Below are positions 26,587-49,767 of a stretch of 51,015 nucleotides of DNA, one piece after another. This DNA comes from an uncultured Phycisphaera sp. (GTDB lineage: Bacteria; Planctomycetota; Phycisphaerae; UBA1845), in contig CAYQZH010000002.1 in NCBI GenBank assembly GCA_964421865.1, positions 1-51,015 of the forward strand, given 5' to 3'. Every line of letters begins with the position of its first letter. The first letter of the stretch is position 1. The position numbers and the translations under genes are program-made. The notes below the pieces were generated by a model, which searched no databases, had not been told where the DNA came from, and was given only the letters and a program-made list of their open reading frames with translations.

Positions 26587-26600
26587 CCGATTCCCCCTTG

Positions 26601-30726: not shown

Positions 30727-30780
30727 CCTTTCATCTCCTTTCGGCGCCTAACGCTTTGGCATTATGCGGCATCAAAACAA

Positions 30781-31293
30781 TCACGTTGTATCGTCTTGTC
30801 TGTCCTGAGCACGGAGTAAGTTTCGCACGTCGTCCGGCAACCATCCAAACGTCAGACACCGCCGCGTCTCGCGTCTTAAGTTCTCGATGTCCAGCGACGA
30901 AATATCACCGAACCCAGCTTGCCGCCCCCGCAGAATCGCCATCACGTACAAGACACGAGCCACATCGCGCGGGAGACCGCCGTCCTCAACCAAAGACGCC
31001 TTGGCGAAGTCCTTGGCCAGCCTTATGGCGTCAATAGAAGGCGATGCGTTTCGGAGCAGATCGCCGAATGTTCCGCCTTGGTATCCGCCAATGATCGACG
31101 ACACTTCCTCGCGAGAACGGTCGCTGATCTCAGCCAACCGATCAAGTTCGGACGCCAGCGGCGTGGCCAACTGATGCTCGAGCATGGCTCGGAGGTCGGC
31201 AGATGACCACGGCACCGCGTCAGGCCGCGAAGGGTCCATCAGCGCCCTAAGGATGTCCTTGCTCTTGCGGCTTGCCGCTGGCGGCTTGGTCAT
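30781..31293 (-). CDS. hypothetical protein (170 aa) immediately downstream of the ECF sigma gene
   Basis: Composition is balanced (DLRAMLEHQLATPLASELDRLAEISDRSREEVSSIIGGYQGGTFGDLL...VARVLYVMAILRGRQAGFGDISSL). It has no TM helix and no HxxxCxxC anti-sigma motif. Confidence 0.6.
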   Translation of the reverse strand: MTKPPAASRKSKDILRALMDPSRPDAVPWSSADLRAMLEHQLATPLASELDRLAEISDRSREEVSSIIGGYQGGTFGDLLRNASPSIDAIRLAKDFAKASLVEDGGLPRDVARVLYVMAILRGRQAGFGDISSLDIENLRRETRRCLTFGWLPDDVRNLLRAQDRQDDTT

Positions 31294-31356
31294 CGATGCA
31301 CCATACGAACTCCAATGCCCACCGTTACTACCTCTTCGCCCTGGCCGTGTTGCGCA

Positions 31357-32100
31357 TTATCGTCCGACGATCTCACGCAAGTCGGCGATCTCCTCGTCGA
31401 TCTGATCCTCATTGTAAACATAGCGCCCGACCGCCGCGCGTAAGTGTTTGGCAAAACATCTCTTGGCGTTCGCAAGCAGATTCATGGCCTGGCGAGGCGT
31501 CTGGATGCCAAATCGCCTAACGACCTGTCCGTAGTCGGCGGCCTCGGCACCATGAAGCATCGGATCGACAACCCTCAGGTAGAAGATCTCCCACAAGTCA
31601 CTGCGATCACGGCCCTCGCAGTCGGACTCCATCAACTCGAGGGCATCCCGAACGACCTGCTGTACCCACTCCTGCTCAAATCGATTAGTGCCGGAACGCG
31701 TTGCTAGAACAGCAAGCGTAGACTCGTCCAAACCTGACGCCATCGCCCTGGCTGCGTACTCTTGCTTTAGCTTCGTCGTCACGAAGTTGTTAAGCGCCTT
31801 GAGGACGAAATTGCGGAATTTGCCCTTGCCCCGGTCGGCGTGGTGAACGAGCTTTCGGGCCAGAATTTTGTCCGCGACGAAGTCGTGAAGGAGATCGTCC
31901 GCCAAGTCTGGTCGTAAGCGACGTGTCTCGGTCAGGAAGGCCCGCAACGCCGGTGCATAGGCGACGAGCAACTCGGCAAGTGCCAGCTGCCGGGTCATTT
32001 CATCAGATGCCGCCGCGCGTCCGACCAGCGACCAGCGGGTCTCCGGGAATCGCGATGGTTTCTTCCGGTCGTAAGGCATTCGATGCCTCTGTCGAGCCAC
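31357..32100 (-). CDS. ECF-type sigma-70 family RNA polymerase sigma factor (kinase-linked type)
   Basis: The N-terminus is FPETRWSLVGRAA. The region-2-like block is DLLHDFVADKILARKLVHHADRGKGKFRNFVLKALNNFV. The region-4-like HTH is YGQVVRRFGIQTPRQAMNLLANAKRCFAKHLR. It is divergent from a Hanks kinase. Confidence 0.75.
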   Translation of the reverse strand: MARQRHRMPYDRKKPSRFPETRWSLVGRAAASDEMTRQLALAELLVAYAPALRAFLTETRRLRPDLADDLLHDFVADKILARKLVHHADRGKGKFRNFVLKALNNFVTTKLKQEYAARAMASGLDESTLAVLATRSGTNRFEQEWVQQVVRDALELMESDCEGRDRSDLWEIFYLRVVDPMLHGAEAADYGQVVRRFGIQTPRQAMNLLANAKRCFAKHLRAAVGRYVYNEDQIDEEIADLREIVGR

Positions 32101-32618: not shown

Positions 32619-33779
32619 GTGCCGATTCTTTCGCCTGGGCAGGTTGTGCGCGACACCTATGAGGTCGAACGTCTCCTCGGTGAGGGGGCGTTTGCCGAGG
32701 TCTACCGCGTAAAGCATCGCTTCATGGGCCGACAGGCCATGAAGGTCTTCAAAGCGACCGGAGCGACGCTAGAGGACATCGAGCACGACATAGCAGAAGC
32801 CATTCTCCTTTCTGGCATCAAGCACCCCAACATCGTTGAAGTCTACGACGCCAACGTGCTGGAGGCAAGCAAGGCCCAGTTCGGCTATTTCACGATGACC
32901 TACATGCCTGGCGGCACGCTGGAGCGGTTCTGGCGGTCGTTCGGAACCACCCTGATGCCGGTCGAACAGGTTGTTGAGGTGATCAGGCAGGCATGCCGGG
33001 GGCTGGCCGTCGCTCACTCGTCCTCGCCCCCCATTGTCCACCGCGACATCAAACCGCAGAATCTGCTCGTCGGGTTCGCAGCCGATGGCCTACGCGTGCG
33101 TCTCAGTGACTTCGGCCTAGCCAAAGCCGTCAACCCGCTCACCTTGTTGGTCAGCGCCAAGGGCACGCTGGGCTTCAAGCCGCCGGAGTCGCTTAACAAC
33201 GTCGATTCCTGCGCCGCAGATGTCTGGGCCGTCGGTACGACCCTTTACCTGCTCCTCACCGACGAGATGCCTTTCCCGATGCTAAGCGATCGCGACGTGG
33301 AGGACGCCAACCGGTTCCTGCGGCCCATTCGTCCGCCCAGCATTTACAACATCGGCATCGATGCCGGCCTAGAGTCCATCATCTTTAGATGCCTTGCTGC
33401 CTCTGCTTCGGACAGATACGCCGATGCCAACGAGTTGCTTCGTGACCTGGAGAAGTGGACACCGGGCTACAAGCCGCCGGGAACGTCAGTCAGCCAGTCC
33501 AAACGAGGCTCGAAGACGGCGATTGCCGAGCGTTCTCCTCATGACCTCAAGGGCGAGGCGCGAAATGCGCTCCAAGAAGCCATCGGGATCGCCCACGACC
33601 CCACGAAGCTCATGTCGGCCGCGGACTTGCTGGAAGAGGCTATCAGCAAGGATCCCGCCCTTCGCGATCGGTATGAGTCGCAACTTCAACTTTGGCGCAA
33701 AGGCATCATGCACGTGTCGACGGCAGACTTCTCACGGTCCAAGTCGAGGGGGCGAAACCCGGAGGGCAAAATCCCCTAG
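32619..33779 (+). CDS. Hanks-type Ser/Thr protein kinase, soluble (386 aa)
   Basis: Kinase motifs are LGEGAFAEVYRVKH (G-loop), AMKVFK (VAIK Lys), HRDIKPQNLLV, DFGLAK, GTLGFKPPE and DVWAVGTTLY. There is no TM helix. It has a GTG start behind GGAGTGG. Confidence 0.9.
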   Translation: MPILSPGQVVRDTYEVERLLGEGAFAEVYRVKHRFMGRQAMKVFKATGATLEDIEHDIAEAILLSGIKHPNIVEVYDANVLEASKAQFGYFTMTYMPGGTLERFWRSFGTTLMPVEQVVEVIRQACRGLAVAHSSSPPIVHRDIKPQNLLVGFAADGLRVRLSDFGLAKAVNPLTLLVSAKGTLGFKPPESLNNVDSCAADVWAVGTTLYLLLTDEMPFPMLSDRDVEDANRFLRPIRPPSIYNIGIDAGLESIIFRCLAASASDRYADANELLRDLEKWTPGYKPPGTSVSQSKRGSKTAIAERSPHDLKGEARNALQEAIGIAHDPTKLMSAADLLEEAISKDPALRDRYESQLQLWRKGIMHVSTADFSRSKSRGRNPEGKIP

Positions 33780-33930: not shown

Positions 33931-36900
33931 ATGGAGTGCCCGCATTGCCATTTGGAGGCGCAGATTCGAGCTGATGGAATCTGCCAGGCTTGCGGGAGAA
34001 ACCGCTGGGAACCTACGCCGGAGTCGGGGGCGACCGCGGTCAATCCGAAGCCCAATGCGCAGCTCGGTAGAGACGGGGTAGCGGCAACCGCAATCCCAGA
34101 ATGCGAGGAACTCATCGAACTGGCAACGCCGCACATCTACCGCCGCAACCTGTTCCGTGTGCTTGGACTACCAGTAAACGCAAGCCCGAAGGATGTCCAG
34201 CAACAGCAGAATCGCCGCAAAATACAGGAGAAGCTCGGCATTGCCGCCTCCGCTCATCACGGCGGTCCTCTCGTCCTCGAACCACCACCCACTGAGGAAG
34301 ACATTCGCGCCGCGATGGAACGCCTGAATCGTCCGGTGGACAGGCTTCTTGACGAGCTCTTCTGGTTCTGGCCGACCAACGGAAGTGTCGCCGGCGATCC
34401 CGCTCTCAAAGCAGTGGAGCAGGGAAATGTCGACAAGGCCGCCAAGCTCTGGACAGAGCAGGCCGAGCTAGGCGGGCAGCGAGAGATCGCAACCCACAAC
34501 CTGGCCGTACTCGATCATCTCATCGCTCTCGACTACGAGGCCCGTCTAGCCTCGCAGAGCTTGGACACGAAGGAGCAGGAACCCCTGGCCGACCTCTGGC
34601 TCCGAGTATTCGTGCGTTGGGGGGAGGTGCTTGACGGCGAGGAGTTCTGGAGCGTCGTCAAGAACCGTGTTCGTGACCTGGACGACGCGCAGCTTACGAC
34701 CGGCTTCGTCCGCCGTGTTCGGGGTACCCTGCCCACCGCTCTCCTCCTGATTAACGCAAAGATCGCTTACAGTGCGGCGGAACGGTCCGACAGCGAGCTC
34801 GCCCGGCAACACTACCAACTGCTGCAATTGGCAGATTTCCGATGTGGCCTCGCCGACGAAGCTATCCGCGAGTCGCTCAAGCCAATCCGAAACCGGATCA
34901 AGACCGCCACGGACAATGCCAAAGGCCGATGGACCAGGACGCCGCATCACGGGAATCGCTTCGCCCGAGAATTGCACGAGCAGGCCAAAAGCATGCTCGC
35001 CATCGTGGACGCGATTCTCCCGGAAAACGACCTGACCCGTGCAGGGCTGCACGATCTAGTTGCAGAAACGATGCGCGAAGGCTTGGTTGATTTCGGGAAC
35101 AAGACGAACGATTGGCAAGAATGCGACAGAATTCTCAAGCTGGCCGAAGAACTGGCCATCGGCCAGGCCGTCAAGACGAAACTGTCTAACGATCGCGCAA
35201 TCGTTCAACAGAACGCTAAGGACGGCAACGACTGGTGCAGCCCCGGTTATTGGGACCTGCCGGAGGAGACCATCACTCAGCTTGAGGCCGCTCGCGCGAA
35301 GACCCAAGCAGGAGACTACGAAGGAGCAGGCCGACTGTTGGTCGTTCTCGACCCGAAGATTGGCAAGCCTCTACGTTGCTGTCTGGCCTTCTGCCTTAGC
35401 CACCGTGGATCACAGATAGCGGGACAGGGCTTGAATGACTTTTCGAGCGAACCCACCCCCAAAGTGCAAAGGTTTCTGGATGTCATTGGCCGCCTAGGGT
35501 CAGTGCCGCTTCCAAACCCCAACATGCAGTCCTGGCAGCTCCCGGATTGTCCATGTTGCGGCACGAAAAGTTACACAAGTTGGGTCAATGGAGAATACAA
35601 AGGACAGCGCTATTGGATGTGCAGCCAGTGTTCGGAGGAGGACAACCGAGAGCGAGAAAAAAGAAAGCGCGTGCTCCGAAAGAGCATCAGTGAATCCTTG
35701 GAGTATGTACTCCTTGCCGACGAGCTCGACCCCAATAACACCGGAATCCGCGAGAATCTTAAGTCGTTGAAGGAGATCGCGAACGATATCGGCGCGAGCA
35801 TCCCCAAGACGAAGGGACTGAAAGAGAAGCTAGGGGCCGAGACCACGAGGGGCAAACGGCATGAGTTCGAGTCGTCACCCGAAGACACCGTCTGCCACTT
35901 CTGCGGCGAACATGCTGCAGACGAGTCTTGCCGCATCACCGTGGCAATGTGCGGCGACCTCCAGCCCGCCGAGCTACTCTTCTGCAAGGGAACCGAGTAC
36001 GAGTACGGTGACGCTATCGTGCCTCGCTGCAAACGCTGCTTCGGCGCGCACCGAGAAGTAGCAGAGGCCCAGACCGCCATTGAGCAGGCCGAGTCCATTG
36101 GAAAGGAATGCGACAGGTGCAAATCCAGCCTTTTTTGGCACCGGTGCCTTTGCCGACGTTGCGACAGCAGGGTCTTCCAACTCGGACGACTTTCGAAGGG
36201 TTTCGCTTTTGCTGCCGCCATCTTTTTGCCAGCCGTCGGCCTCGCTCTTGCTACTGATTATTACGAGGTTTTGGCTTCCGTGGCCGACTTCGTCGCCGCG
36301 AACAGCGGTTTGACACTCACAGACGCCGGTTTTTGGGTGCGGGTTATCGTAGGTGGTGCAATTCCGCTGTTCATGGTCCTCTCCGTTCCGGTCGGTTTGA
36401 AGCGGAGGCAGCGATGTCTGCGGCGGGAAATGAGCGAGAAGCGGCAGGCTGAGATCCAACAACGCCGACATGTCGCGCACAACATCGCGCAAAAGAAGCT
36501 AGACGAGGCCGCGTCTTTCCTGAGGTCGGCCGGCATTAAGTCAGAGTCCGCGTACCTAGAGTTCCACCGAATCAACGAGTTATGTGGCCGCGGTTGGAGG
36601 TTTGGTCACGTGACGGAGGCTAACGGCAAGGCGGCCATTGAAGACCTAGACTACGTGAAAGGCCTTGTTTCTGGTGTCAGGCGGGCGAGCGAGGGTTCGA
36701 TTGTCGAGATTGCAGCACTGAAGACGGCAATCAGTGAGATGCGGTGTTGGGACGACAACTTGGAAACGCTGTCGAGGCGTGCGGTCCAAGCCCTGGTGCT
36801 ACGGGGCTTTTCACCCAAGGATGCCAGACGCCAACTCGAGGGAGCTGGGGTTTCGCGGCGTGCAGCGCGGTCGTTGGTTCGGGAGGCCGCGTCGGACAAT

Positions 36901-36939
36901 GCACAGTTCAGTCAAGAAGGAACTTCGCACAACCCATGA
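33931..36939 (+). CDS. 1002-aa multi-zinc-ribbon protein with a J-domain-like segment lacking HPD and two C-proximal TM helices
   Basis: The N-terminal ribbon is CPHCHLEAQIRADGICQACG. The J-like helices are IYRRNLFRVLGLPVNASPKDVQQQQNRRKIQEKLG...IRAAMERLNRPVDRLLDELFWFWP, and there is no HPD tripeptide anywhere. Further ribbons are CPCCG..CSQC, CHFCG, CKRC and CDRC..CRRC. The TM helices are FAFAAAIFLPAVGLALA and VIVGGAIPLFMVLSVPVGL. Confidence 0.8.
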   Translation: MECPHCHLEAQIRADGICQACGRNRWEPTPESGATAVNPKPNAQLGRDGVAATAIPECEELIELATPHIYRRNLFRVLGLPVNASPKDVQQQQNRRKIQEKLGIAASAHHGGPLVLEPPPTEEDIRAAMERLNRPVDRLLDELFWFWPTNGSVAGDPALKAVEQGNVDKAAKLWTEQAELGGQREIATHNLAVLDHLIALDYEARLASQSLDTKEQEPLADLWLRVFVRWGEVLDGEEFWSVVKNRVRDLDDAQLTTGFVRRVRGTLPTALLLINAKIAYSAAERSDSELARQHYQLLQLADFRCGLADEAIRESLKPIRNRIKTATDNAKGRWTRTPHHGNRFARELHEQAKSMLAIVDAILPENDLTRAGLHDLVAETMREGLVDFGNKTNDWQECDRILKLAEELAIGQAVKTKLSNDRAIVQQNAKDGNDWCSPGYWDLPEETITQLEAARAKTQAGDYEGAGRLLVVLDPKIGKPLRCCLAFCLSHRGSQIAGQGLNDFSSEPTPKVQRFLDVIGRLGSVPLPNPNMQSWQLPDCPCCGTKSYTSWVNGEYKGQRYWMCSQCSEEDNREREKRKRVLRKSISESLEYVLLADELDPNNTGIRENLKSLKEIANDIGASIPKTKGLKEKLGAETTRGKRHEFESSPEDTVCHFCGEHAADESCRITVAMCGDLQPAELLFCKGTEYEYGDAIVPRCKRCFGAHREVAEAQTAIEQAESIGKECDRCKSSLFWHRCLCRRCDSRVFQLGRLSKGFAFAAAIFLPAVGLALATDYYEVLASVADFVAANSGLTLTDAGFWVRVIVGGAIPLFMVLSVPVGLKRRQRCLRREMSEKRQAEIQQRRHVAHNIAQKKLDEAASFLRSAGIKSESAYLEFHRINELCGRGWRFGHVTEANGKAAIEDLDYVKGLVSGVRRASEGSIVEIAALKTAISEMRCWDDNLETLSRRAVQALVLRGFSPKDARRQLEGAGVSRRAARSLVREAASDNAQFSQEGTSHNP

Positions 36940-37051: not shown

Positions 37052-37984
37052 ATGAATGACAAGACACACAAAAACGAGCCGCTTCTTGGCGTGAAGAGCG
37101 GCATACTTGAAGCAGTCCGACAGTGGTGCTTCCCACTGGAGTTTCGCATCGCTGCGCCAGGTATGCCCTTGGATGCGCTAACGGAAGTCGAAACAGCGAT
37201 ACGGTGCGCACCTGTTACGCAACCAGCGGGACGGCCCACCGCTCCAACTGAATCTAGCACGTCGAACGAACTCGTTGCGGACTTGGCTACCTGTCTCTGG
37301 TATCTCAAGACAAAGCACTTCAATCGCAAATGGGAGGACGACGAAACAGGCGACGACGACCCACGGGTGCGTCGATCGCTGAGTCGGCTAAACAAAGGGA
37401 TTACCGCACTAAAGGGGGCTGGCGTCGAGGTCCACGATCCCACCAACAAGCGTTATCCACAGGGGGGCGAGGGTATGATGCGGCCACTTCAGTTTCAGCC
37501 GACGGCTGGCTTGACCTTCGAGGTCGTTAGCGACACTGTCGCCCCCATCATTTACCGGGATGACCGGCTCATCCAGCGCGGTGAGGTATTTGTCGCTGTC
37601 CCGAAGGAACAGACAAGCGATGCGTCGGCGTCCACCGCCCAGGCCGCCTCACCTAGCGTCGAAGAGGTGCCCGTGACGGACGAGTCCTTGCCATCGCAGG
37701 CAGAAGCGTTGACGACTACAGCTGCCAAAGTGGCGAACTGCGGGGCCCCCAAAGGGGCAGCACCGGCGGACGACGGTAGCATCGAGTCCCTGACCTCAAA
37801 GCAAGTTGCCGGCGCAACTGACGAGGAAGTGGCCGACGAAAAGCGACTGGGGCCAGCAACCTCATGCAACGCCGCCAATCACGAAACTACGGCCGCGGAG
37901 GCTGAATTGGAGACGTATCGGGCAGGGGGCGAGCCAGACTCGAAACAAGAACCAAAGACAAACAAGGACGATGGAACGGTATAG
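37052..37984 (+). CDS. divergent GrpE-like nucleotide-exchange-factor candidate with acidic/Ala-rich tail
   Basis: The segment LNKGITALKGAGVEVHDPTNKRYPQGGEGMMRPLQFQPTAGLTFEVVSDTVAPIIYRDDRLIQRGEVFVAVPKE follows the GrpE C-terminal pattern (GVE.I...G..FDP..H.A........V..V...GY...DR.IR.A.V.V). It sits between the J-like gene and an Hsp70 gene. The CDS itself is confident, but the functional call is moderate. Confidence 0.55.
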   Translation: MNDKTHKNEPLLGVKSGILEAVRQWCFPLEFRIAAPGMPLDALTEVETAIRCAPVTQPAGRPTAPTESSTSNELVADLATCLWYLKTKHFNRKWEDDETGDDDPRVRRSLSRLNKGITALKGAGVEVHDPTNKRYPQGGEGMMRPLQFQPTAGLTFEVVSDTVAPIIYRDDRLIQRGEVFVAVPKEQTSDASASTAQAASPSVEEVPVTDESLPSQAEALTTTAAKVANCGAPKGAAPADDGSIESLTSKQVAGATDEEVADEKRLGPATSCNAANHETTAAEAELETYRAGGEPDSKQEPKTNKDDGTV

Positions 37985-38003: not shown

Positions 38004-40505
38004 ATGCCACGAACGACCATTGATTTCGGTATCGACCTGGGGACGACCAACAGCACCGTCGCTGTGATCGATGGAATAGACGCGAAGGTCATCCCGAACA
38101 AGGGCGGATCGGGAATCACGCCTTCTGCCGTGTGGATCGACAAGCGCGGCAGCATCCACGTCGGTCAGGAGCCGAAGCTGCACGCTTTGGTCGATGACGC
38201 AGACAACGCCGACCTGGAGTTTAAGCTCCGCATGGGTCTCGGTGACGAGGGCAAGAAGGTATTTGCCCGCAGTAGTCGGGAGATGCTGCCCGAAGAACTG
38301 TCGGCCGAGGTGCTCAAGTCCTTGAAAACCGACGTCCGGAGCAACATGAACGAGGACCTCCGCGCAGTCGTGATCACCGTCCCAGCGGCCTTCGAGAACC
38401 CGCAGACCACCGCTACGCGCAAGGCTGCTGAACTCGCCGGTTTTACGCTCAGTCCGCTGCTTCTAGAGCCGGTCGCCGCTTCGCTGGCTTACGGCTTCCA
38501 GACCCAGAGCGAAAATGTCTACTGGATGGTGTACGACTTCGGCGGCGGCACATTCGATGCGGCGGTGATGCACATCCGCGACGGCCTGATTCAGTATGTG
38601 AAACACAATGGAGATAACTTCCTCGGTGGCAAACTAATCGATTGGGATATCGTGACCAAGGTGCTAATCCCGCCCCTTACCAAACAGTTCAACTTACCCG
38701 ACTTCAGACGCGGCAATCCGCGATGGCGGTTCGCTATCGGCAAAATGAAATACTACGCCGAACAAGCGAAGATCGAGGTATGCCGCTCGAAGGCTCCGTA
38801 CGAGATCTGGATCGAGAGGCTGTGCGAGGATGCGGACGGAAAGGAGGTCGACTTCGCCTACACGCTAACGCCAAAAGATGTGGAGCAGGTCAGCAAACCG
38901 CATATCGAAAAGTCGCTGGGCTGGTGCCGCTCGACGCTGGAGCAGGCGCGGCTGAGCGGATCGGATATGGAGCGGATTCTGATGGTTGGCGGCACGACAC
39001 TGAACCCCTGGGTTCGAGAGGCGGTCCAAGCCGAGTTGGCCAGCCGGCTCGAGTTCGGTATCGATCCGGTAACGGTCGTCGCGCGGGGGGCCGCCATCTT
39101 CGCGAGCACGCAGGCCCTGCCGCCGGACCCCTCGGCAGCGGTCCCCAAGGGAACCTGGCAAATCCAGTTCGAGCACAAGCCGGTCGGCAACGTGCCTGAC
39201 CCGGACATCGGCGGTCGTATCATGCCTCCGGATGGTCGGAGCGTTGCAGGCTTCACCATCGAACTCGTCGACACGAAGACGCAGTGGCGGTCGGGCCGGA
39301 TCACCCTTGGAGGGGATGGCGTGTTCATGACGCAGCTCCATGCGGAGAAGCAGCGGCGACACGAGTACGCTATCGAACTTTGCGACGCGAAGGGCACACA
39401 TATCCCGACCACGCCGGATCGTGTCTCGTACACCGTTGGCGTGATCCCACAGGAGAATCCACCTGCGGCAATGACCATCGCGGTAGGCTTGGCGGATGGC
39501 GGAGTGGCAATCTACCTAAAGAAAGGCACCAAGCTACCAGCCCGCAAAACGATCGATCACTACACTACCGTCGCACTCCGTGCGGGGCACGCAAAAGACG
39601 AACTGCGCATTCCCCTGCTCGAAGGTGAGCACGCTCGCGCGGAACGCAACCACGGCATCGGCGTGATGACGATCAAGGGGTCTGACATCCGGCGCGACCT
39701 GCCAGCCGGCAGCCAGATCGAGATCACCCTCGTCATGGACACGTCTCAGCAGGTTCGTCTCCAAGCCTATGTGAATTGCTTGGACGAGGACTTCGACGTC
39801 AGTTTCGATCCACAGATGAAACACAACTCGCTTGCAGACCTTTGCAAAGACGCGCACCAGCAAAAAACGCGCTTGGCAAACGCTCGTGAGAAGGCTGAGC
39901 GAACGAACGCACTGAAGGCCGAGGCTGCCCTGTCAACGATCGAAGACCAACAGTTGCTCGGGCACGTCGATTCACTTATCGAGGCTGCCGGCAACGACCC
40001 GGATGCTGTTGCCCAACTTGACCGCCGAGTCCGCGAGTTAGCATCAGCCGTCGATGAGGTAGAGGATTCCATTGAATGGCCAGATCTTCTAGTGAAAGCT
40101 GAAGAGTCTCGCAAGGAAACCGAGCGTGTAGTGGGAGAGTACGGCGAAGCCAGCGATCGAAACAGGCTCCGTTCGCTCAAGGAAGAACTCCAGCGGGCTG
40201 TCGATACAGGGGACCCTGATCTACTCCGCCGGTATATCGACGAGCTCTGGGGCCTGTACTTCCAAGTGCTTGACCGGCAGCCGGGTTTCCATGTCGGGCA
40301 GTTTAACCGGCTTGTTGAGCGGGTCCAGTCGATGCGCGACCCGGGGCAGGCAGAACAGGTCATTGCGCAAGGCCGCCGCGCGATCAACAACAACGACATC
40401 GAGGCGTTGAAGGCCGCCAATCGCCAGCTCCTCTCCCTTCTGCCTCGGGACATTCAAGAGCAGGTCAAGCATGAGAATGTCGGCGACACAATTACAAGAG
40501 GGTAA
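38004..40505 (+). CDS. non-canonical Hsp70-family ATPase (833 aa) with an inserted domain before the substrate-binding beta-domain and a ~230-aa helical C-terminal extension
   Basis: Hsp70 motifs are IDFGIDLGTTNSTVAV, VITVPAAFENPQTTATRKAAELAGF, YDFGGGTFDAAV and MVGGTTLNPWVREAV. The SBD-beta-like segment is MTIAVGLADGGVAIYLKKGTKLPARK...PLLEGEH. The start was chosen at MPRTTIDFG (ATG 38004); ATG 37971 is an alternative, and the track start at 37806 lies inside the previous gene. Confidence 0.9.
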   Translation: MPRTTIDFGIDLGTTNSTVAVIDGIDAKVIPNKGGSGITPSAVWIDKRGSIHVGQEPKLHALVDDADNADLEFKLRMGLGDEGKKVFARSSREMLPEELSAEVLKSLKTDVRSNMNEDLRAVVITVPAAFENPQTTATRKAAELAGFTLSPLLLEPVAASLAYGFQTQSENVYWMVYDFGGGTFDAAVMHIRDGLIQYVKHNGDNFLGGKLIDWDIVTKVLIPPLTKQFNLPDFRRGNPRWRFAIGKMKYYAEQAKIEVCRSKAPYEIWIERLCEDADGKEVDFAYTLTPKDVEQVSKPHIEKSLGWCRSTLEQARLSGSDMERILMVGGTTLNPWVREAVQAELASRLEFGIDPVTVVARGAAIFASTQALPPDPSAAVPKGTWQIQFEHKPVGNVPDPDIGGRIMPPDGRSVAGFTIELVDTKTQWRSGRITLGGDGVFMTQLHAEKQRRHEYAIELCDAKGTHIPTTPDRVSYTVGVIPQENPPAAMTIAVGLADGGVAIYLKKGTKLPARKTIDHYTTVALRAGHAKDELRIPLLEGEHARAERNHGIGVMTIKGSDIRRDLPAGSQIEITLVMDTSQQVRLQAYVNCLDEDFDVSFDPQMKHNSLADLCKDAHQQKTRLANAREKAERTNALKAEAALSTIEDQQLLGHVDSLIEAAGNDPDAVAQLDRRVRELASAVDEVEDSIEWPDLLVKAEESRKETERVVGEYGEASDRNRLRSLKEELQRAVDTGDPDLLRRYIDELWGLYFQVLDRQPGFHVGQFNRLVERVQSMRDPGQAEQVIAQGRRAINNNDIEALKAANRQLLSLLPRDIQEQVKHENVGDTITRG

Positions 40506-40574
40506 TGTTACGCCATGATTGCCGTGCTGCTGGGATACCAGGGCAAACAAACCAGTGCCGAAGAAACCTAGAGG

Positions 40575-41648
40575 ATGCCGGCCATGCGATTCAATTCGAG
40601 CAATACAACTGCGGATACGAGTAGTTCCATGTCTGGCGCCAACAAGGGTTCTGCCAGACTCTTTTCTGCGGCCGTCATCCTGGCGAGAAGGGGCCGATAC
40701 GTCGAAGCTACCAAGCTGCTTCAGAAGGCTCATGGTGCCGGAGAGTGTTCGGATGCTGAAGCCTTAGATTTGCAGGCCCGCATCTACGCTCAGCAAGGGC
40801 TCTACTTGCATGCCGAATCCTGCTGGAACAAGGCGAAACAACTCGATGGATCAACTCCAGCATACGATGAAGCGCTGAGCCGGCTTCGCCGAGCTCGTCA
40901 TTCGAGCGGCCGCTTTGTGCGGGTGAGCGTTATTATATCCGTACTCCTAATCCTGGGCCTTTTATTCTGGCAGGTCGCGTTCGTCAACCCAACCATTGTC
41001 GCTCGCCAGGACGCAGCCGAGAGTTCGCTTAGCGCGATTCGCGGGGAAATCGCCGCACTGCAAGACGCTTCACGGGGACGGGATCAAGCCCTCGCCACGA
41101 CCGTCACGAGCTTGGGCACTGGCCTAACCGATTTCGAGTCGCGCCTTTCCGAACGGTTGGAATTGGTGCCAACAGTCTCGCGGACCGCAGAAGACCGCAA
41201 TGCCGTGATCGCCCGTGTCGATGCGCAGATTGGCGTGCTTCAGAAGGCCCTCGAGCGCGAGGCTGGCAGTCTGGAAACCCGTCGCGCCGAGGCCGACATT
41301 GCGCAGGTCAAGAGAATCGAAACTCTCGAAGCGGCCATCGCCGACATGGGCAAGGTCTTGGCTTCTCTTGAAGAAGGACTCAGCAAGCGTGTTGAGGCAG
41401 CCGAGATCCGTCTTGCCGAACGCGTCGATGCGATGGATGACACCGTTAAGCGCGAGATGAAGTCCCTGCCCACTTCAGCCGAACTCGCGACACTCGGCGA
41501 CTCAATCTCCAAACTCCATGAGCAGCTTGCGGAGATTGCGGCTGCGGTTAAACCGCCTAAGGGTGCTTCCGATCAGAATGTTGGTGGAGCCGACGATGAC
41601 AAGAGAACGGACCAACCGTCGCCCCCGCCAGAGGGACAGCGACCATGA
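40575..41648 (+). CDS. TPR-like / single-TM / long coiled-coil protein (357 aa)
   Basis: The N-terminal TPR-like part is ARRGRYVEATKLLQKAHGAG...ARIYAQQGLYLHAESCWNKAKQLD. The TM helix is VSVIISVLLILGLLFWQVAFV. About 200 aa of heptad-like E/A/L/R-rich sequence follow, ending in a P-rich tail. Confidence 0.75.
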   Translation: MPAMRFNSSNTTADTSSSMSGANKGSARLFSAAVILARRGRYVEATKLLQKAHGAGECSDAEALDLQARIYAQQGLYLHAESCWNKAKQLDGSTPAYDEALSRLRRARHSSGRFVRVSVIISVLLILGLLFWQVAFVNPTIVARQDAAESSLSAIRGEIAALQDASRGRDQALATTVTSLGTGLTDFESRLSERLELVPTVSRTAEDRNAVIARVDAQIGVLQKALEREAGSLETRRAEADIAQVKRIETLEAAIADMGKVLASLEEGLSKRVEAAEIRLAERVDAMDDTVKREMKSLPTSAELATLGDSISKLHEQLAEIAAAVKPPKGASDQNVGGADDDKRTDQPSPPPEGQRP

Positions 41649-41682
41649 GCTGGGCGAACGCGACGTCCAGTGGGTTTGCATC

Positions 41683-43200
41683 ATGAGCATCGTCGGTTTA
41701 GATTTTGGCACTACCAAGTGTCTTGGTGCGATTTGGAAAAACGAAAAGCCTCTGATAGTCGGCACTGGCATCGACGATTCTCGTATCCCCTCATTGGTTT
41801 TGGTTCTTCCCGACGGCACGACACTAGTAGGGTCGGAGGCGCAGCATTATCGGGGTAGGTACGGCGGCGGTTGCCTTTCGATTCCGGGTTGCAAGCGGCG
41901 GATGGAAACGCGAGAGGGGCTCGCCTGGGCAAGCTGGCATGCCCAACGGCACGAAGTTGCAGCGATGGTCCTACAATACGCAAAAGGGAGGGTGGAGAAC
42001 CGCGCGGGCTCACCGATTTCGACAGCTGTGCTTACGGTACCAGGTTGTGCCACGCTCAGTTATCGCGAGGCACTCGTAAAAGCCGCTACGATCGCTGGAA
42101 TCAAGGTCGACAGGCTTCTGGGCGAAGCGGTCGCAGCAGCATTGCCCTTCATTTTCTCGCCGCGTTGCCCGGCGGAGTGTACCCTGGCGTCGGTGACCTT
42201 CGGTGGTGGCACGCTGGACATCGCGTTCATGGGGGTCGACAAGAGCATCGGCGTCGTTGAAGTTCTTGGCGTTGCAGGCGATCCCAAGCTCGGTGGCCAG
42301 GATTTTGACGACATCATCGTTGACCACATTGTTGCTTGCAACCCATCAGCGCGCGCAGGACAAGATCGGCTCAGCAACGCGCAATATGAAATCCTCCGCG
42401 AAGTCGCATCCCAGATAAAGACCGACCTCAGTTTCGCGTCCAGCGCAACGATCCGTCTGACTGGCCTCTTCACTGCGCAATCTTCATCGACGCGGCTCCA
42501 AGACCCCGAACTGACGCGCGACGCCTTCCAGAAGATGTCGCAAGGTCTTCTTGCTCGCGTTGAGCGCGCTACGGAGAAAGCCCTTGTTGACGTCGAGTGG
42601 AAGGGTGGCAGATGGCATGGAGAACGCCTCGTGCTCCTCAACGGCGGTAGCAGCAGAATGCCGGCCTTTCAGGACCTCATACGAAAGGCGTTCTATCCTT
42701 GTACTCGCATCTTTTCTGGATCGGAAACAAGTGCTGTCGATGGCGCGCTGATGTACGCACGTATTCTCGGTGGAGAGAACAAGAGCTTCATCGTGATGGA
42801 TGTCCTACCGCATCCAATGCATCTTGGCTTGGCCGGGGGTAATTCTGTAACAGTATTTCCTCGTGGGTCGCATATCCCAACAACAGAGACCGTCGCACTG
42901 TCGGCGAATGGCGACGGTATGCGCGAACTCAGGATCCCTATTTTCGAAGGAGAGGTAGAAGAAGGTGGCACGGGCAGGACCCCCTACGGCTGGATTTGCC
43001 TGACGGGAGTAGGTCAATCTGGGCGCGATACGCCGCGCATAGACTTGTCGATTCATGTGGATTGGAGGATGCGGCTTGGGGTCTGTGCGATTGACCAGCA
43101 AAGCAAAAAGGAAATAGCTGCGCGGGTAGAAAGTGCTTTCGCTTCTGCGGGGGCCAGAGACGTTGAATTCGTGTATTCTAAACATAGGATGGCGCCGTAG
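41683..43200 (+). CDS. lidless Hsp70-like ATPase (505 aa)
   Basis: Motifs are VGLDFGTTKCLGA, VLTVPGCATLSYREALVKAATIAGI, VTFGGGTLDIAFM and LLNGGSSRMPAFQDLI. The SBD-beta-like segment is VMDVLPHPMHLGLAGGNSVTVFPRGSHIPT...IPIFEGE. The protein ends right after the beta-domain, so it has no helical lid. Confidence 0.85.
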   Translation: MSIVGLDFGTTKCLGAIWKNEKPLIVGTGIDDSRIPSLVLVLPDGTTLVGSEAQHYRGRYGGGCLSIPGCKRRMETREGLAWASWHAQRHEVAAMVLQYAKGRVENRAGSPISTAVLTVPGCATLSYREALVKAATIAGIKVDRLLGEAVAAALPFIFSPRCPAECTLASVTFGGGTLDIAFMGVDKSIGVVEVLGVAGDPKLGGQDFDDIIVDHIVACNPSARAGQDRLSNAQYEILREVASQIKTDLSFASSATIRLTGLFTAQSSSTRLQDPELTRDAFQKMSQGLLARVERATEKALVDVEWKGGRWHGERLVLLNGGSSRMPAFQDLIRKAFYPCTRIFSGSETSAVDGALMYARILGGENKSFIVMDVLPHPMHLGLAGGNSVTVFPRGSHIPTTETVALSANGDGMRELRIPIFEGEVEEGGTGRTPYGWICLTGVGQSGRDTPRIDLSIHVDWRMRLGVCAIDQQSKKEIAARVESAFASAGARDVEFVYSKHRMAP

Positions 43201-43287: not shown

Positions 43288-43818
43288 ATGAATGGCAAAC
43301 AGATCATTGACGTAGCTGCTGAGGTGGCCCGGCTTGTGGTTGAGTCGCGACTCCGTGACTTTGCGCTGATCGCCCAGACAGACCGCAGTGACCGCATACG
43401 AGCGGTTGCGGCAGTCATATCAAAGTTTCCTCCCGGAGGATATCTAATCGGCTGCGGCCCGTATTCTTGCGGCATTGTGCCGTTGACCGTTGACGAATTG
43501 GTCCTTGGTCGCCCGCCGTCACCTCTGGAGGGAGTTCCGGAGTCTGTCGCAGACTTCACGCTGAACGATGCAGTGTGGATGTTGCCGCGCGAAGCATCGA
43601 GAATCCATGCCAGCATCATTCGTCGTACTGTAAACGGGAATGCTAGGTACTGGGTGAGAGACGAACGCAGTCGCGCCGGAACGTACGTGAACTGCCGGCA
43701 GGTCGAAGCAGGCGAAGATGCCGCGGACATTGACAAGGCGGTAGAGTTGACAAACGGCGACATACTCTCGCTGGGTCCGTCGGGTGTCAACGCCTACGTC
43801 TTCTACGTCGCCAGCTAA
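43288..43818 (+). CDS. FHA-domain protein (176 aa)
   Basis: The FHA pattern is LVLGRPPSP...DFTLNDAVWMLPREASRIHASIIRRTVNGNARYWVRDERSRAGTYVNCRQV...ELTNGDILSLGPSGVNAYVF, matching G-R...SR.HA......Y.v.D..S..GT.VN....L..GD.i.lG. Confidence 0.85.
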   Translation: MNGKQIIDVAAEVARLVVESRLRDFALIAQTDRSDRIRAVAAVISKFPPGGYLIGCGPYSCGIVPLTVDELVLGRPPSPLEGVPESVADFTLNDAVWMLPREASRIHASIIRRTVNGNARYWVRDERSRAGTYVNCRQVEAGEDAADIDKAVELTNGDILSLGPSGVNAYVFYVAS

Positions 43819-49100: not shown

Positions 49101-49274
49101 CCGCGCCGGCGGACACTCGCGACGGCAATGTCGTCGTGCCCGCCGGGACCGAATCGGACGTCCCGGTGAAGCCCTGGACAGGCGTCCGGAGGCCGAAACG
49201 GGGCCGATCAGCCAGGAACCAGCCAGGAAGGCGAACCGGACGCGCGTAAGTCCTTATTATACAATAGGTTACAA

Positions 49275-49683: not shown

Positions 49684-49767
49684 TGCGGCTGAGAGGAGTC
49701 GAACCTCCACGTCCTTTCGGACACTGGATCCTAAATCCAGCGCGTATGCCAATTCCGCCACAGCCGC
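49684..49767 (-). tRNA. tRNA-Leu, anticodon UAG (class II, long variable arm)
   Basis: The minus strand reads GCGGCTG TG GCGG AATTGGCATA CGCG C TGGAT TTTAGGA TCCAG TGTCCGAAAGGACGT GGAGG TTCGACT CCTCT CAGCCGC A. The acceptor has 7 bp, the anticodon loop is TT-TAG-GA, and the variable arm forms GTCC/GGAC. Confidence 0.9.

What the first reader, a model, noticed from the sequence alone, without database searches (positions are those of the whole stretch)
38004..43200. Two structurally aberrant Hsp70 paralogues bracketing a TM coiled-coil protein
Hsp70-1 keeps all ATPase signatures. It carries an extra ~110-aa segment (WQIQFEHKPVGNVPDPDIGG...ELCDAKGTHIPTTPDRVSYTV) between the nucleotide-binding and substrate-binding domains. 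It replaces the normal lid with a ~230-aa helical extension. Hsp70-2 has altered phosphate-1 (DFGTTKC instead of DLGTTNS) and ends right after the beta-sandwich, so it has no lid at all. Between them lies a TPR / single-TM / ~200-aa coiled-coil protein that could position the pair at the membrane. Lidless or tail-swapped Hsp70s usually signal specialised clients.
Basis: partly seen in the sequence, partly recalled or inferred. Interest (0 to 1): 0.6.

Follow-up and report, generated by a model that had tools for sequence, protein, structure and literature searches.

The report
Mobile kinase-linked Hsp70 module, extra Hsp70
The long Hsp70 is the motor of a widespread, horizontally moving and apparently undescribed gene module with its own GrpE-type exchange factor, an HPD-less J-like membrane adaptor, a protein kinase and a TPR membrane anchor, whereas the short lidless Hsp70 is an unrelated orphan found only in this lineage.

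Summary
Window 38004-40505 encodes an 833-aa Hsp70 with an intact ATPase, a 115-aa beta-sandwich insert between the two usual domains, and a 200-aa helical tail. Window 40575-41648 encodes a TPR / single-TM / helical protein. Window 41683-43200 encodes a 505-aa Hsp70 that stops 17 residues after the beta-sandwich.

The "pair" reading is only partly right.
- Hsp70-1 belongs to a conserved module: Ser/Thr kinase, giant adaptor with an HPD-less J-like domain, GrpE-fold protein, 825-837-aa Hsp70, then TPR-TM protein. About 85 loci from many phyla carry it, but only 6 of 401 sampled genomes of its own phylum do.
- In the Hsp70-1 family the catalytic residues are invariant, while the DnaK residues that contact the J-domain HPD are replaced. 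This matches the HPD-less partner.
- Hsp70-2 has no relative above 34% identity. It sits in a variable slot of the module, is absent from every related locus, and carries D194T in phosphate-2.
- Neither protein falls in the DnaK, HscA, HscC or YegD groups.

I found no paper or catalogue entry for the module, and its function is untested. My reading is a membrane-tethered, phosphorylation-coupled Hsp70 switch, possibly for defence or stress sensing. This scan has already noted the same module on other DNA in several genomes.

The parts
30781..31293 (-). 170-aa protein of unknown function that travels with the sigma-like gene
   Evidence: Homologues sit next to the sigma-like gene in 8 loci. It is 62% identical in the class-mate genome G269, in the same divergent position.
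31357..32100 (-). Divergent sigma-70/ECF-like protein (247 aa), divergent from the kinase gene
   Evidence: The window protein has no Pfam match, but 4 of 9 family members match Sigma70_r2 (best 3.7e-7). It is present in 4 of 25 loci with enough upstream flank and is 74% identical in G269.
32619..33779 (+). Soluble Hanks-type Ser/Thr kinase (386 aa), first gene of the + strand module
   Evidence: Pkinase E 2.5e-39. HRDIKPQN and DFG motifs are present and there is no TM segment. Homologues at 50-77% identity lie upstream in 23 of 31 loci with enough flank.
33931..36939 (+). Giant adaptor (1002 aa). The conserved N-module spans aa 51-450 (nt 34081-35280) and holds an HPD-less J-like domain at aa ~70-150 (nt 34138-34380). 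The C-terminal half is variable, with Zn ribbons and a TM hairpin at aa 757-823 (nt 36199-36399).
   Evidence: hhalign against true J domains gives probability 77%, E 1.9e-5. A profile search of PDB finds many DnaJ J domains at E 0.07-0.8. The HPD position reads K-L/Y-G, and HPD is absent in 39 of 40 homologues. Variable C-termini in homologues include HEAT, Sel1, TPR, DnaJ_C and RDD. Alignment occupancy is and TM segments. The gene is present upstream in 45 of 46 loci.
37052..37984 (+). GrpE-fold nucleotide-exchange-factor candidate (310 aa). The structured core is aa 67-184 (nt 37250-37603) and the tail is disordered and acidic.
   Evidence: AF2 models the core at pLDDT ~97, as two helices plus a six-strand beta-domain. 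The top 12 Foldseek PDB matches are all GrpE or GrpEL1 at probability 0.99-1.0; the next matches are below 0.1. Pfam GrpE matches 16 of 46 family members weakly. hhalign against real GrpE gives E 3.5e-4. The gene lies directly upstream of the Hsp70 in 59 of 63 loci.
38004..40505 (+). Hsp70-1 (833 aa). NBD nt 38004-39107; beta-sandwich insert nt 39117-39461; SBD-beta nt 39462-39818; helical tail nt 39831-40433; conserved G-[GD]-T-[ITLM] C-terminal tail.
40575..41648 (+). TPR / single-TM (aa 119-137, nt 40929-40985) / helical C-terminal protein (357 aa). It is the conserved membrane partner of Hsp70-1.
   Evidence: The family is found in 58 loci and 54 of 58 members have one TM. The N-terminal TPR-like 100 aa are conserved, while the C-terminal region varies in sequence and overall length runs from 127 to 425 aa. 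It lies directly downstream of the Hsp70 in 39 of 58 loci.
41683..43200 (+). Hsp70-2 (505 aa; alternative start 41596). Lidless orphan Hsp70 with D194T, sitting in the module's variable accessory slot.
43288..43818 (+). FHA-domain protein (176 aa), a phosphothreonine reader and the last gene of the array
   Evidence: FHA E 3.2e-8. Homologues lie downstream of the Hsp70 in 7 other loci. It is 66% identical in G269.

Best explanation
The finding covers the 3' half of one horizontally mobile module.

Shown:
- Hsp70-1 is an ATPase-competent, deeply divergent Hsp70.
- It almost always travels with a GrpE-fold protein and a large adaptor whose conserved N-module contains a J-like domain lacking HPD.
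- It usually also travels with a soluble Hanks kinase and a TPR-TM protein.
- Downstream lies a variable slot that holds FHA, Clp_N or ClpB-like, Zn-ribbon or other genes in different loci.

Inferred mechanism:
- Hsp70-1 runs a private ATP cycle, and the GrpE-fold protein resets it.
- The membrane-anchored adaptor recruits or stimulates Hsp70-1 through a co-evolved, non-canonical interface. Both sides have lost the canonical contacts: HPD on the adaptor, and R151, R167, N170 and T173 on the Hsp70.
- The adaptor's variable C-terminal domains choose the client or signal.
- The cytoplasmic TPR domain of the TM protein gives a second membrane tether, perhaps by clamping the conserved C-terminal tail of Hsp70-1.
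- Chaperone occupancy is coupled to the kinase, and the FHA protein reads the phosphothreonine mark. In this genome the output probably reaches the adjacent sigma-like factor.
- Overall this would be a chaperone-gated signalling switch for threat or stress.

Hsp70-2 is a lineage-specific accessory from another clade (lidless or HEAT-fused Hsp70s). It has very probably lost most of its ATPase rate (D194T). I take it to act, if it acts at all, as a holdase or an NBD-binding modulator rather than as an equal partner.
For: Conserved synteny, counted only where the locus had enough flank:
- GrpE-like 59/63
- adaptor 45/46
- kinase 23/31
- TPR-TM 39/58

Component identities:
- GrpE fold.
- J-like domain without HPD.
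- Hsp70-1 catalytic residues are invariant while the J-contact residues are replaced (R151 to T in 44/55, R167 to P in 45/55, N170 to L or Q, T173 to V in 51/55), and there is no VLLLD linker.
- High-confidence Hsp70-1 model.
- The kinase has its active-site motifs.
- Basic residues precede the TM of the TPR-TM family in the members inspected, which implies a cytoplasmic TPR.

Mobility and patchiness:
- Hsp70-1 homologues are 62-81% identical across MAGs named as Phycisphaeraceae, Armatimonadia, Deltaproteobacteria, Desulfobacteraceae and Planctomycetota.
- Only 6 of 401 genomes of the own phylum have it.
- The module lies in a low-GC block beside tmRNA.
- A distant relative is cargo of a Tn7-like element on a plasmid.

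Variable slot and Hsp70-2:
- The class-mate genome G269 has the same gene order, with Zn-ribbon-type genes where the window has Hsp70-2.
- The nearest relative of Hsp70-2 among 1.84 billion cluster representatives is 33-34% identical.
- It has a long terminal branch of 1.66 against a median of 0.37, and D194T seen in none of the aligned relatives.

Housekeeping is covered elsewhere: DnaK and an HscA-like gene lie on other contigs of the genome.
Against: - No interaction, ATPase, kinase or phenotype data exist. Every functional link is guilt by association.
- The window's own 310-aa protein has no Pfam GrpE match, and sequence-only profile support is modest (hhalign probability 37%).
- J-like homology rests on 77% hhalign probability and marginal PDB E-values.
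- The kinase is missing from 8 of 31 loci with enough flank and the TPR-TM from 19 of 58, so neither is obligatory.
- The sigma-like gene is present in only 4 of 25 loci.
- The TPR-to-tail clamp and the N-in topology are inferences.
- Nothing shows that Hsp70-2 is expressed or functional. Comparison with the 96% identical contig L005 gave 2 synonymous and 2 non-synonymous changes, which has no power.
Confidence: 0.55

Rival explanations
1. Anti-phage or anti-mobile-element conflict system. The membrane-tethered Hsp70 and adaptor detect foreign or mass-produced proteins. They then release or activate the kinase, or in some relatives a fused TIR or an AAA+ partner, to arrest or kill the cell. 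This is a specific version of the switch above, not exclusive of it.
For: - Distribution is patchy, and homologues are highly identical across MAGs named to different phyla.
- The module lies in an island beside tmRNA.
- One full-length homologue carries a C-terminal TIR_2 domain.
- The adaptor C-termini and the accessory slot are variable.
- Some flanks hold genes matching PADLOC models (PDC-S01, PDC-M72A, mad2/3/8, MzaA, AriA, pAgo, TerY) and a CHAT/DO-GTPase neighbour.
- A distant relative is Tn7-like cargo.
Against: - None of the six proteins from the adaptor to FHA matches a PADLOC model; the kinase was not scanned against PADLOC.
- Most loci have no recognisable effector.
- I did not measure defence-gene enrichment in the flanks against a background.
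- No relatives were found on viral contigs, which argues neither way.
- No phage-challenge data exist.
Confidence: 0.35
2. Envelope or proteotoxic stress regulon switch. The Hsp70 triad holds or remodels a regulator in the manner of DnaK-sigma32. The kinase phosphorylates the adjacent ECF-like sigma factor in the manner of ECF43-type sigma/kinase pairs. This turns on the neighbouring 12-kb array of envelope proteins on the minus strand.
For: - The sigma-like gene and its 170-aa partner are divergent from the kinase, both here and in G269.
- Sigma activation by Hanks kinases is documented for ECF43-type factors (PMC13147305 and PMC7826278, titles and abstracts only).
- Two module proteins are membrane-anchored.
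- Adjacent genes encode PEGA/PD40, Lcl_C and pentapeptide proteins.
Against: - The sigma-like gene accompanies the module in only 4 of 25 loci with enough flank.
- The window's sigma-like protein has no Pfam match itself and no PDB sigma match by profile.
- The envelope array is not conserved next to the module in other loci.
Confidence: 0.25
3. Hsp70-1 and Hsp70-2 work as an obligate NBD-NBD heterodimer, like Hsp70-Hsp110. The lidless, slow Hsp70-2 would act as an exchange factor or holdase for Hsp70-1 at the membrane.
For: - Two Hsp70-1-family proteins, P0067 and P0082, carry a tandem extra NBD of their own family (82% and 57% identical to their C-terminal copy). A second NBD therefore recurs in this family.
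- A 2026 review proposes Hsp110-like roles for truncated DnaK derivatives (PMC13580251).
- Hsp70-2 keeps its interdomain linker (FIVMD) and SBD-beta.
Against: - Hsp70-2 has no orthologue in any of about 85 related loci or in four genomes that carry the module.
- The module already has its own GrpE-fold exchange factor.
- Hsp70-2 belongs to an unrelated clade, and its nearest lidless relative sits with an AAA_21 ATPase, not with an Hsp70-1-type gene.
Confidence: 0.12
4. Hsp70-2 is a decaying passenger gene with no present function.
For: - It is an orphan with a very long branch.
- It has lost a catalytic Asp (D194T) and N170.
- Its start codon is uncertain, either 41596 or 41683.
Against: - It has an intact 505-codon frame in a 58% GC region.
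- Most motifs are kept: D7, T10, K71, E148, GGGT, D179, GG..R.P and the linker.
- It is 99% identical in amino acids in the related contig L005.
Confidence: 0.2
5. Both are ordinary DnaK or HscA paralogues with mis-read domain boundaries.
For: Both match Pfam HSP70 strongly.
Against: - Scores are 203-249 bits against curated cut-offs of 620-823 bits.
- The genome has a true DnaK and an HscA-like gene elsewhere.
- AU tests reject the DnaK clade (p 0.004 and 0.002).
- The AF2 model confirms the insert and the long tail.
Confidence: 0.02

Closest known systems
DnaK-DnaJ-GrpE chaperone triad
   Same: An Hsp70 ATPase with a full catalytic set and an SBD-beta is encoded next to a GrpE-fold protein and a protein with a J-domain-like helical unit. 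One adaptor homologue even carries DnaJ_C.
   Different: - Hsp70-1 lies in a separate deep clade.
- It has a beta-sandwich insert in place of the VLLLD linker region and a 200-aa helical tail.
- It lacks the J-contact residues R151, R167, N170 and T173.
- The J-like unit lacks HPD and sits on a giant membrane protein.
- The GrpE-like protein lacks the long N-terminal helix.
- A kinase and a TPR-TM protein are part of the set.
- Distribution is patchy and mobile.
E. coli HscC with DjlB/DjlC (specialised Hsp70 with private membrane-anchored J proteins and Sel1-repeat neighbours)
   Same: A non-housekeeping Hsp70 is encoded with its own membrane-anchored J-type partners and repeat proteins. Some adaptor homologues here carry Sel1 or TPR repeats.
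   Different: - DjlB and DjlC are annotated as J-domain co-chaperones; that they keep HPD is from my own knowledge and was not checked here.
- The E. coli hscC neighbourhood shows no GrpE-type or kinase gene.
- HscC has a short lid and no insert.
- HscC does not group with either protein in the tree.
GTPase-centred conflict systems with HSP70, GrpE and an NBD-only HSP70 (Kaur, Burroughs, Iyer and Aravind 2020, PMC7159879)
   Same: A private HSP70 plus GrpE, sometimes with a second truncated HSP70 and a DnaJ- or TPR-fused partner, occurs in predicted conflict systems.
   Different: - Those systems are defined by GAP1-N2 or DO-type GTPases, FNIII-repeat proteins or tubulin. None is in this operon.
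- The second HSP70 there lacks the peptide-binding domain, whereas Hsp70-2 keeps it.
CnuD-type Hsp70 NBD/SBD + HEAT proteins of Type III CoCoNuT (McrBC-related) systems (PMC11090510)
   Same: The nearest relatives of Hsp70-2 have the same architecture: Hsp70 NBD/SBD without a lid, followed by HEAT repeats (one search compared).
   Different: - There is no McrB or McrC homologue in this operon.
- The paper describes CnuD ATP-binding motifs as degenerate, whereas the Hsp70-2 clade keeps the catalytic set.
- Direct homology to CnuD was not tested.
E. coli YegD with YegI kinase, PphC phosphatase and YegL vWA (TerY-P-like cluster)
   Same: An Hsp70-family ATPase is genetically linked to a Ser/Thr kinase.
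   Different: - YegD has only the NBD.
- That cluster has a PP2C phosphatase and a vWA protein, and shows no GrpE-type or J-type gene.
- YegD branches far from both proteins.
Hsp110/Grp170 (eukaryotic Hsp70 derivatives acting as exchange factors)
   Same: These are Hsp70-derived proteins with inserted segments and extended helical C-termini, and a divergent Hsp70 partners another Hsp70 (from PMC13580251).
   Different: - As far as I know, the Hsp110 insert lies inside the SBD-beta, not between the NBD and the SBD.
- No evidence here of NBD-NBD pairing.
- This module has its own GrpE-fold factor.

Membership tests
DnaK (TIGR02350 / NF001413 equivalogs) | Whole-protein score above the curated cut-off (822.55 and 648 bits) | tested here: not met
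   Hsp70-1 scores 249.2 and 247.6 bits. Hsp70-2 scores 202.7 and 203.3 bits.
DnaK | Placement inside the DnaK clade in an NBD phylogeny | tested here: not met
   Both lie outside it. AU tests reject forcing either into the clade, with p 0.004 for Hsp70-2 and 0.002 for Hsp70-1. The groups were named after seeing the tree.
DnaK | NBD, hydrophobic linker (VLLLD), SBD-beta and a helical lid of about 100 aa | tested here: not met
   Hsp70-1 has a 115-aa beta-sandwich where the linker should be and a 200-aa tail. Hsp70-2 keeps the linker (FIVMD) but has no lid.
DnaK | J-domain contact residues R167, N170 and T173, plus R151 | tested here: not met
   In Hsp70-1 they are P151, L154, V157 and T135, and these replacements are the majority residue at each position in 55 homologues. 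Hsp70-2 keeps R128 and R144 but has G147 and V150.
HscA (TIGR01991 / NF003520) | Score above cut-off (708.55 and 620 bits) and grouping with HscA | tested here: not met
   Scores are 205.8 and 202.1 bits for Hsp70-1 and 151.4 and 154.4 bits for Hsp70-2. The genome's own C288 protein, not these two, groups with E. coli HscA.
HscC | Grouping with E. coli HscC; short lid; private HPD-bearing DjlB/DjlC partners | tested here: not met
   Neither protein groups with HscC. The co-encoded J-like protein lacks HPD.
YegD | NBD only, with no SBD | tested here: not met
   Both proteins have an SBD-beta.
Active Hsp70 ATPase (functional class) | Catalytic set D8, K70, E171, D194, T199 and D201 in DnaK numbering | tested here: met
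   Met for Hsp70-1: all six are present and invariant in 55 sequences. Not met for Hsp70-2, where D194 is T172 and the other five are present.
GrpE (PF01025), for the 37052-37984 product | Sequence match to the family model | tested here: inconclusive
   The window protein has no match. Sixteen of 46 homologues match weakly, best at 6.3e-4. hhalign against true GrpE gives probability 37% and E 3.5e-4 over the helix plus beta-domain.
GrpE | Fold: paired helices followed by a compact beta-domain | tested here: met
   The AF2 core at aa 67-184 has pLDDT ~97. The top 12 Foldseek PDB matches are all GrpE or GrpEL1, E 7e-5 to 1.7e-2 and probability 0.99-1.0.
GrpE | Nucleotide-exchange activity on its Hsp70 | not testable with these tools
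   This needs biochemistry.
J-domain proteins (PF00226), for the 33931-36939 product | HPD tripeptide between helices II and III | tested here: not met
   The aligned position reads K-L/Y-G. HPD is absent anywhere in 39 of 40 homologues.
J-domain proteins | Homology of the four-helix unit | tested here: inconclusive
   hhalign gives probability 77.5% and E 1.9e-5. Many DnaJ J domains are found at E 0.07-0.8 by PDB profile search. There is no Pfam DnaJ match.
GTPase-centred HSP70/GrpE conflict systems (PMC7159879) | A GAP1-N2 or DO-type GTPase core gene in the operon | tested here: not met
   No GTPase family appears among the 16 proteins scanned from 17-44 kb. A DO-GTPase2 gene occurs near one relative (L001) on the other strand.
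CoCoNuT Type III (CnuD) | Linked McrB-like GTPase and McrC/DUF2357 genes | tested here: not met
   None appears among the scanned operon proteins.
Catalogued anti-phage systems (PADLOC-DB 2.0) | Match of any component to a system model | tested here: not met
   There are no matches for the six proteins scanned, from the adaptor to FHA.

The most novel reading that the evidence does not exclude
The module is a new class of chaperone-gated immune switch. A membrane-tethered, non-canonical Hsp70 cycle has its own GrpE-fold factor and an HPD-less J-like sensor with swappable C-terminal domains. It monitors the cytoplasmic face of the membrane for foreign or mass-produced proteins. It then converts client load into Ser/Thr phosphorylation, read by FHA and in some hosts by a sigma factor. 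In other lineages the output is a TIR or AAA+ effector. In this lineage a captured lidless, ATPase-impaired Hsp70 serves as an extra decoy or holdase.
Probability: 0.3. Interest if true: 0.85.

Novelty: new variant of a known kind. Interest (0 to 1): 0.6.

Why it matters
[quoted passage not shown] This locus gives a concrete, testable example.

- It is an Hsp70 whose whole co-chaperone logic has been rewired. It has a private GrpE-fold factor, and the J-like partner and the Hsp70 have both lost the canonical HPD/R167 contact.
- It is physically tied to the membrane and genetically tied to a eukaryote-type kinase and a phosphothreonine reader.
- If the non-canonical J interface is real, it would show a second way to trigger an Hsp70.
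- If the module senses infection or envelope damage, it would add a chaperone-based sensor to bacterial signalling or immunity.
- The orphan Hsp70-2 and the tandem-NBD relatives hint that a second Hsp70 ATPase domain can be recruited repeatedly. This bears on how Hsp110-like partners arise.

Tried and rejected
- PADLOC scan of six operon proteins, adaptor to FHA: nothing.
- Profile search of PDB sequences with the GrpE-like family: no GrpE match. Only the fold comparison and Pfam tallies showed it.
- Profile search of PDB with the insert domain: chance-level matches only.
- Profile search of PDB with the sigma-like family: chance-level matches only.
- The genome-contig scan with the full-length alignment used generic NBD motifs and returned mostly ordinary dnaK loci. 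Only L006-L012 and L017 were family members. I then used a C-terminal alignment for the metagenome scan.
- dN/dS against the 96% identical contig L005: too few changes per gene, and the contig has 91 indels, so there is no power.
- Promoter and terminator scan of 32-44.5 kb: fewer matches than in shuffles, uninformative.
- Viral contigs: no relatives.
- One row of the first tree (DnaK_L056) was a bad extraction with a branch length of 10. I removed it before the AU tests.
- Considered and rejected: CoCoNuT or GTPase-system membership, because the defining genes are absent, and ordinary DnaK/HscA paralogy.
Hsp70-2, the adaptor and all complexes remain unmodelled.

Full report
**1. What is at the coordinates**

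The + strand between 32.6 and 43.8 kb carries seven same-strand genes with short gaps of 19-152 nt:
- a Hanks kinase, 32619-33779;
- a 1002-aa protein, 33931-36939;
- a 310-aa protein, 37052-37984;
- Hsp70-1, 38004-40505;
- a 357-aa TPR/TM/helical protein, 40575-41648;
- Hsp70-2, 41683-43200 (gene callers start it at 41596);
- an FHA protein, 43288-43818.

Pfam confirms HSP70 in both Hsp70s, the FHA domain and a weak TPR_2 match, and Pkinase in the kinase.

The block lies in a lower-GC stretch (about 0.54-0.62, against 0.64-0.72 upstream of 16 kb and 0.62-0.67 beyond 44 kb). It is 5.5 kb from a tmRNA gene at 49272-49624 and close to a tRNA-Leu gene. The same genome has a canonical DnaK and an HscA-like gene on other contigs.

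**2. Hsp70-1**

The NBD (residues 8-368) aligns with DnaK structures at E 4e-54. After it the alignment breaks, and it resumes weakly at about 499-600, the SBD-beta.

An AlphaFold2 model built on 55 homologues is confident (pLDDT 87.4, pTM 0.78). It shows:
- the NBD, 1-367;
- a beta-rich insert with strands between 385 and 478;
- the SBD-beta, 492-600;
- nine helices, 610-810;
- a short terminal strand, 829-831.

Foldseek's best matches are full-length DnaK and BiP. The insert gives only weak CarboxypepD_reg matches, in 8 of 18 members with a best E of 1e-3, and nothing in PDB by sequence profile.

The catalytic set is invariant in all 55 sequences: the equivalents of D8, T11, K70, E171, D194, T199 and D201. 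The DnaK residues known to contact the J-domain and linker are systematically replaced:
- R151 to T in 44 of 55;
- R167 to P in 45 of 55;
- N170 to L or Q;
- T173 to V in 51 of 55.

No VLLLD linker follows the NBD. The extreme C-terminus carries a conserved G-[GD]-T-[ITLM] tail.

**3. Hsp70-1 belongs to a conserved module**

A word-indexed search found more than 120 full-length homologues of 826-848 aa at 50-81% identity. They come from MAGs named as Phycisphaeraceae, Armatimonadia, Deltaproteobacteria, Desulfobacteraceae, Syntrophotaleaceae, Thiodictyon and Reyranellaceae.

I collected 80 metagenome loci with a family-specific C-terminal profile, plus loci. Counting only loci with enough flank:

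| Gene | Position relative to the Hsp70 | Loci |
|---|---|---|
| homologue of the 310-aa protein | directly upstream | 59 of 63 |
| homologue of the 1002-aa protein | upstream | 45 of 46 |
| kinase | upstream | 23 of 31 |
| TPR-TM protein | directly downstream | 39 of 58 |
| FHA gene | directly downstream | 4 of 58 |
| Clp_N-only or ClpB/C-like AAA+ gene | within 3.5 kb downstream | 11 of 34 |
| sigma-like gene | upstream | 4 of 25 |

The Hsp70's length is strikingly constant, whereas the adaptor ranges from about 520 to 1200 aa.

In a sample of 401 genomes of the window's own phylum, only 6 carry the family. One of them, G269, is a class-mate. The window is therefore probably from class Phycisphaerae.

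Distant 830-833-aa relatives sit on three large plasmids. One is cargo of a Tn7-like element, and all are annotated only as "Hsp70 family protein" beside "hypothetical protein". None was found on viral contigs.

**4. The partners**

The 310-aa protein:
- It has no Pfam match itself, but 16 of 46 homologues match GrpE weakly.
- A profile-profile comparison with true GrpE sequences aligns the equivalent helix and beta-domain at E 3.5e-4.
- Its AF2 core (aa 67-184, pLDDT about 97) is two helices plus a six-strand beta-domain.
- The top 12 PDB fold matches are all GrpE or GrpEL1 at probability 0.99-1.0, and everything else is below 0.1. I accept a GrpE fold. Exchange activity is inferred.

The 1002-aa protein:
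- It has a conserved N-module (aa 51-450) and a variable C-terminal half.
- The segment at aa 70-150 aligns with J domains at hhalign probability 77.5%, E 1.9e-5. It also draws many DnaJ J domains at marginal E-values.
- The HPD position reads K-L/Y-G, and HPD is absent from 39 of 40 homologues.
- C-terminal halves of homologues carry HEAT, Sel1, TPR, DnaJ_C, RDD or zinc-ribbon domains. The window's copy has zinc ribbons and a TM hairpin at aa 757-823.

Both partners have lost the canonical J-Hsp70 contact. This is the most informative single observation, and it points to a co-evolved alternative interface.

The TPR-TM family:
- It keeps a 100-aa TPR-like N-domain and one TM helix (54 of 58 members).
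- Its C-terminal part varies in length and sequence.
- Basic residues before the TM helix in the members inspected suggest a cytoplasmic TPR domain.

The kinase is soluble and has HRD and DFG motifs.

**5. Hsp70-2**

It aligns with DnaK from residue 3 to 485 and ends 17 residues after the SBD-beta, so it has no lid.

It is effectively an orphan. In a 5.8-billion-protein index, only itself and a 99% identical copy on a low-coverage contig of a near relative (L005) appear. In an exhaustive HMMER pass over 1.84 billion representatives the nearest proteins are 33-34% identical. Those relatives are either about 500-aa lidless Hsp70s or 800-1100-aa proteins with HEAT repeats after the SBD-beta.

In the NBD tree Hsp70-2 falls in that clade (SH-aLRT 99) on a long branch of 1.66, against a median of 0.37. 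Hsp70-1 sits in its own deep clade. AU tests reject putting either into the DnaK clade.

At the residue level:
- "DFGTTK" is the clade norm.
- D194T, seen in none of the aligned relatives, removes a catalytic aspartate, and N170 is G.
- K70, E171, T199, D201, the GG..R.P motif and the linker (FIVMD) are kept.

None of the related loci, and none of four genomes that carry the module, has an Hsp70-2 orthologue. In G269 the gene order is the same, but Zn-ribbon-type genes fill the slots around the TPR-TM gene, where the window has Hsp70-2 between TPR-TM and FHA. Hsp70-2 is therefore a lineage-specific occupant of a variable slot.

Its nearest lidless relative lies after an AAA_21/AAA_13 ATPase, near ImmA-type and ubiquitin-like/ThiF genes.

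Two Hsp70-1-family proteins (P0067 and P0082) carry a tandem duplicate of their own NBD. A second Hsp70 ATPase domain therefore recurs in this family by different routes. This is a hint, not a proof, of NBD-NBD cooperation.

**6. How it most likely works**

Shown: the gene set, its conservation, the folds, the residue patterns, and the mobility.

Inferred:
- Hsp70-1 cycles ATP, and the GrpE-fold factor resets it.
- The membrane adaptor recruits Hsp70-1 through a non-canonical J-like contact, and the adaptor's variable domains choose the client or signal.
- The TPR-TM protein is a second tether. Clamping of the conserved tail is speculation.
- Kinase and FHA couple the chaperone state to phosphorylation. 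Here the output probably passes to the divergent sigma-like factor, whose family matches Sigma70_r2 in 4 of 9 members. Kinase-activated ECF43-type sigma factors are a published precedent (PMC13147305).

Whether the trigger is infection or abiotic stress is open. The following lean towards a conflict role:
- patchy, cross-phylum distribution;
- island and transposon locations;
- a TIR-fused homologue;
- variable domains;
- some defence-type neighbours.

No component matches a catalogued defence model, and I did not measure enrichment against a background.

**7. Comparison with what is known**

The nearest kinds are:
- the DnaK-DnaJ-GrpE triad;
- HscC with DjlB/DjlC;
- YegD beside the YegI kinase;
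- the GTPase-centred HSP70/GrpE conflict systems of Kaur et al.;
- CnuD-type Hsp70-HEAT proteins.

Each fails at least one defining feature here (see the membership table).

Full-text searches found no description of this module. A 2026 review calls such DnaK derivatives unexplored.

Earlier notes of this scan describe the same kind of module on other DNA in several genomes. They are AI notes. They agree with what I found here, and I did not use them as evidence.

**8. Verdict**

The interpretation needs re-centring:
- Hsp70-2 is a local curiosity.
- I class the module as a new variant of a known kind (private Hsp70 triads), with a fair chance of being a new type of sensing or defence switch.

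Noticed in passing
window 49272-49624 (-) and 49684-49767 (-): A full-length tmRNA (155 bits) and a tRNA-Leu lie just beyond the lower-GC block (about 17-44 kb). The Hsp70 module is probably part of an island integrated beside ssrA.
   Followed up: partly
L149:6425-10165 (= P0067) and P0082: Two members of the Hsp70-1 family are about 1250 aa long because they carry a tandem extra NBD of their own family (82% and 57% identical to the C-terminal copy). One copy has a changed phosphate-2 (YDFGNGTFD).
   Followed up: partly
related loci, e.g. L115:2722-5082, L131:12265-14571, L125:11483-11968: Clp_N-only proteins (about 160-190 aa) or full ClpB/C-like AAA+ ATPases (about 770-785 aa) accompany the module, following the TPR-TM gene in 11 of 34 related loci. 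This suggests an Hsp70-Hsp100-type partnership in part of the family. The window lacks it.
   Followed up: partly
P0058 (L003:10001-13363): A full-length Hsp70-1 homologue (64% identical) is fused to a C-terminal TIR_2 domain. It is preceded by a sigma-54 activator-type AAA+ gene, with an HSP90/HATPase_c gene and a TPR gene on the opposite strand.
   Followed up: partly
L173:1722-4514 (context of P0175): The nearest lidless relative of Hsp70-2 follows an AAA_21/AAA_13 ATPase gene. It lies beside Peptidase_M78/HTH and Multi_ubiq plus ThiF genes, a defence-like neighbourhood.
   Followed up: no
L176 (G269:C4) 12646-13644 and 14877-15596: In the class-mate genome, Cys-rich Zn-ribbon-type ORFs of 332 and 239 aa with no Pfam match flank the TPR-TM gene. 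This shows that these slots turn over between close relatives.
   Followed up: partly
L169 and L168 (E. coli K-12): yegD (an NBD-only Hsp70) is adjacent to the yegI kinase, the pphC phosphatase and the yegL vWA gene. hscC is adjacent to djlB, djlC and Sel1-repeat genes. These are model-organism precedents for Hsp70-kinase and Hsp70-private-J linkages.
   Followed up: no
L177 (Shewanella plasmid NZ_CP091834.1) and L178 (Pseudomonas plasmid pSDM007): Distant 830-833-aa relatives of Hsp70-1 sit on large plasmids, each preceded by a small hypothetical gene of 117-123 aa. One is cargo of a Tn7-like element (TnsD and TnsE upstream). RefSeq names the Hsp70 gene only 'Hsp70 family protein' and the small upstream genes 'hypothetical protein'.
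   Followed up: partly
window 19479-32100 (-): The minus-strand array next to the module encodes PEGA/PD40 propeller, Lcl_C, pentapeptide-repeat and several unmatched proteins. Pentapeptide and ankyrin proteins also recur in the flanks of related loci.
   Followed up: no
L005: This is a 96% identical low-coverage (2.8x) metagenome contig of a near relative. It has 91 indels against the window, so its split or fused gene calls (551-aa Hsp70-1, 618-aa Hsp70-2) are assembly noise.
   Followed up: yes
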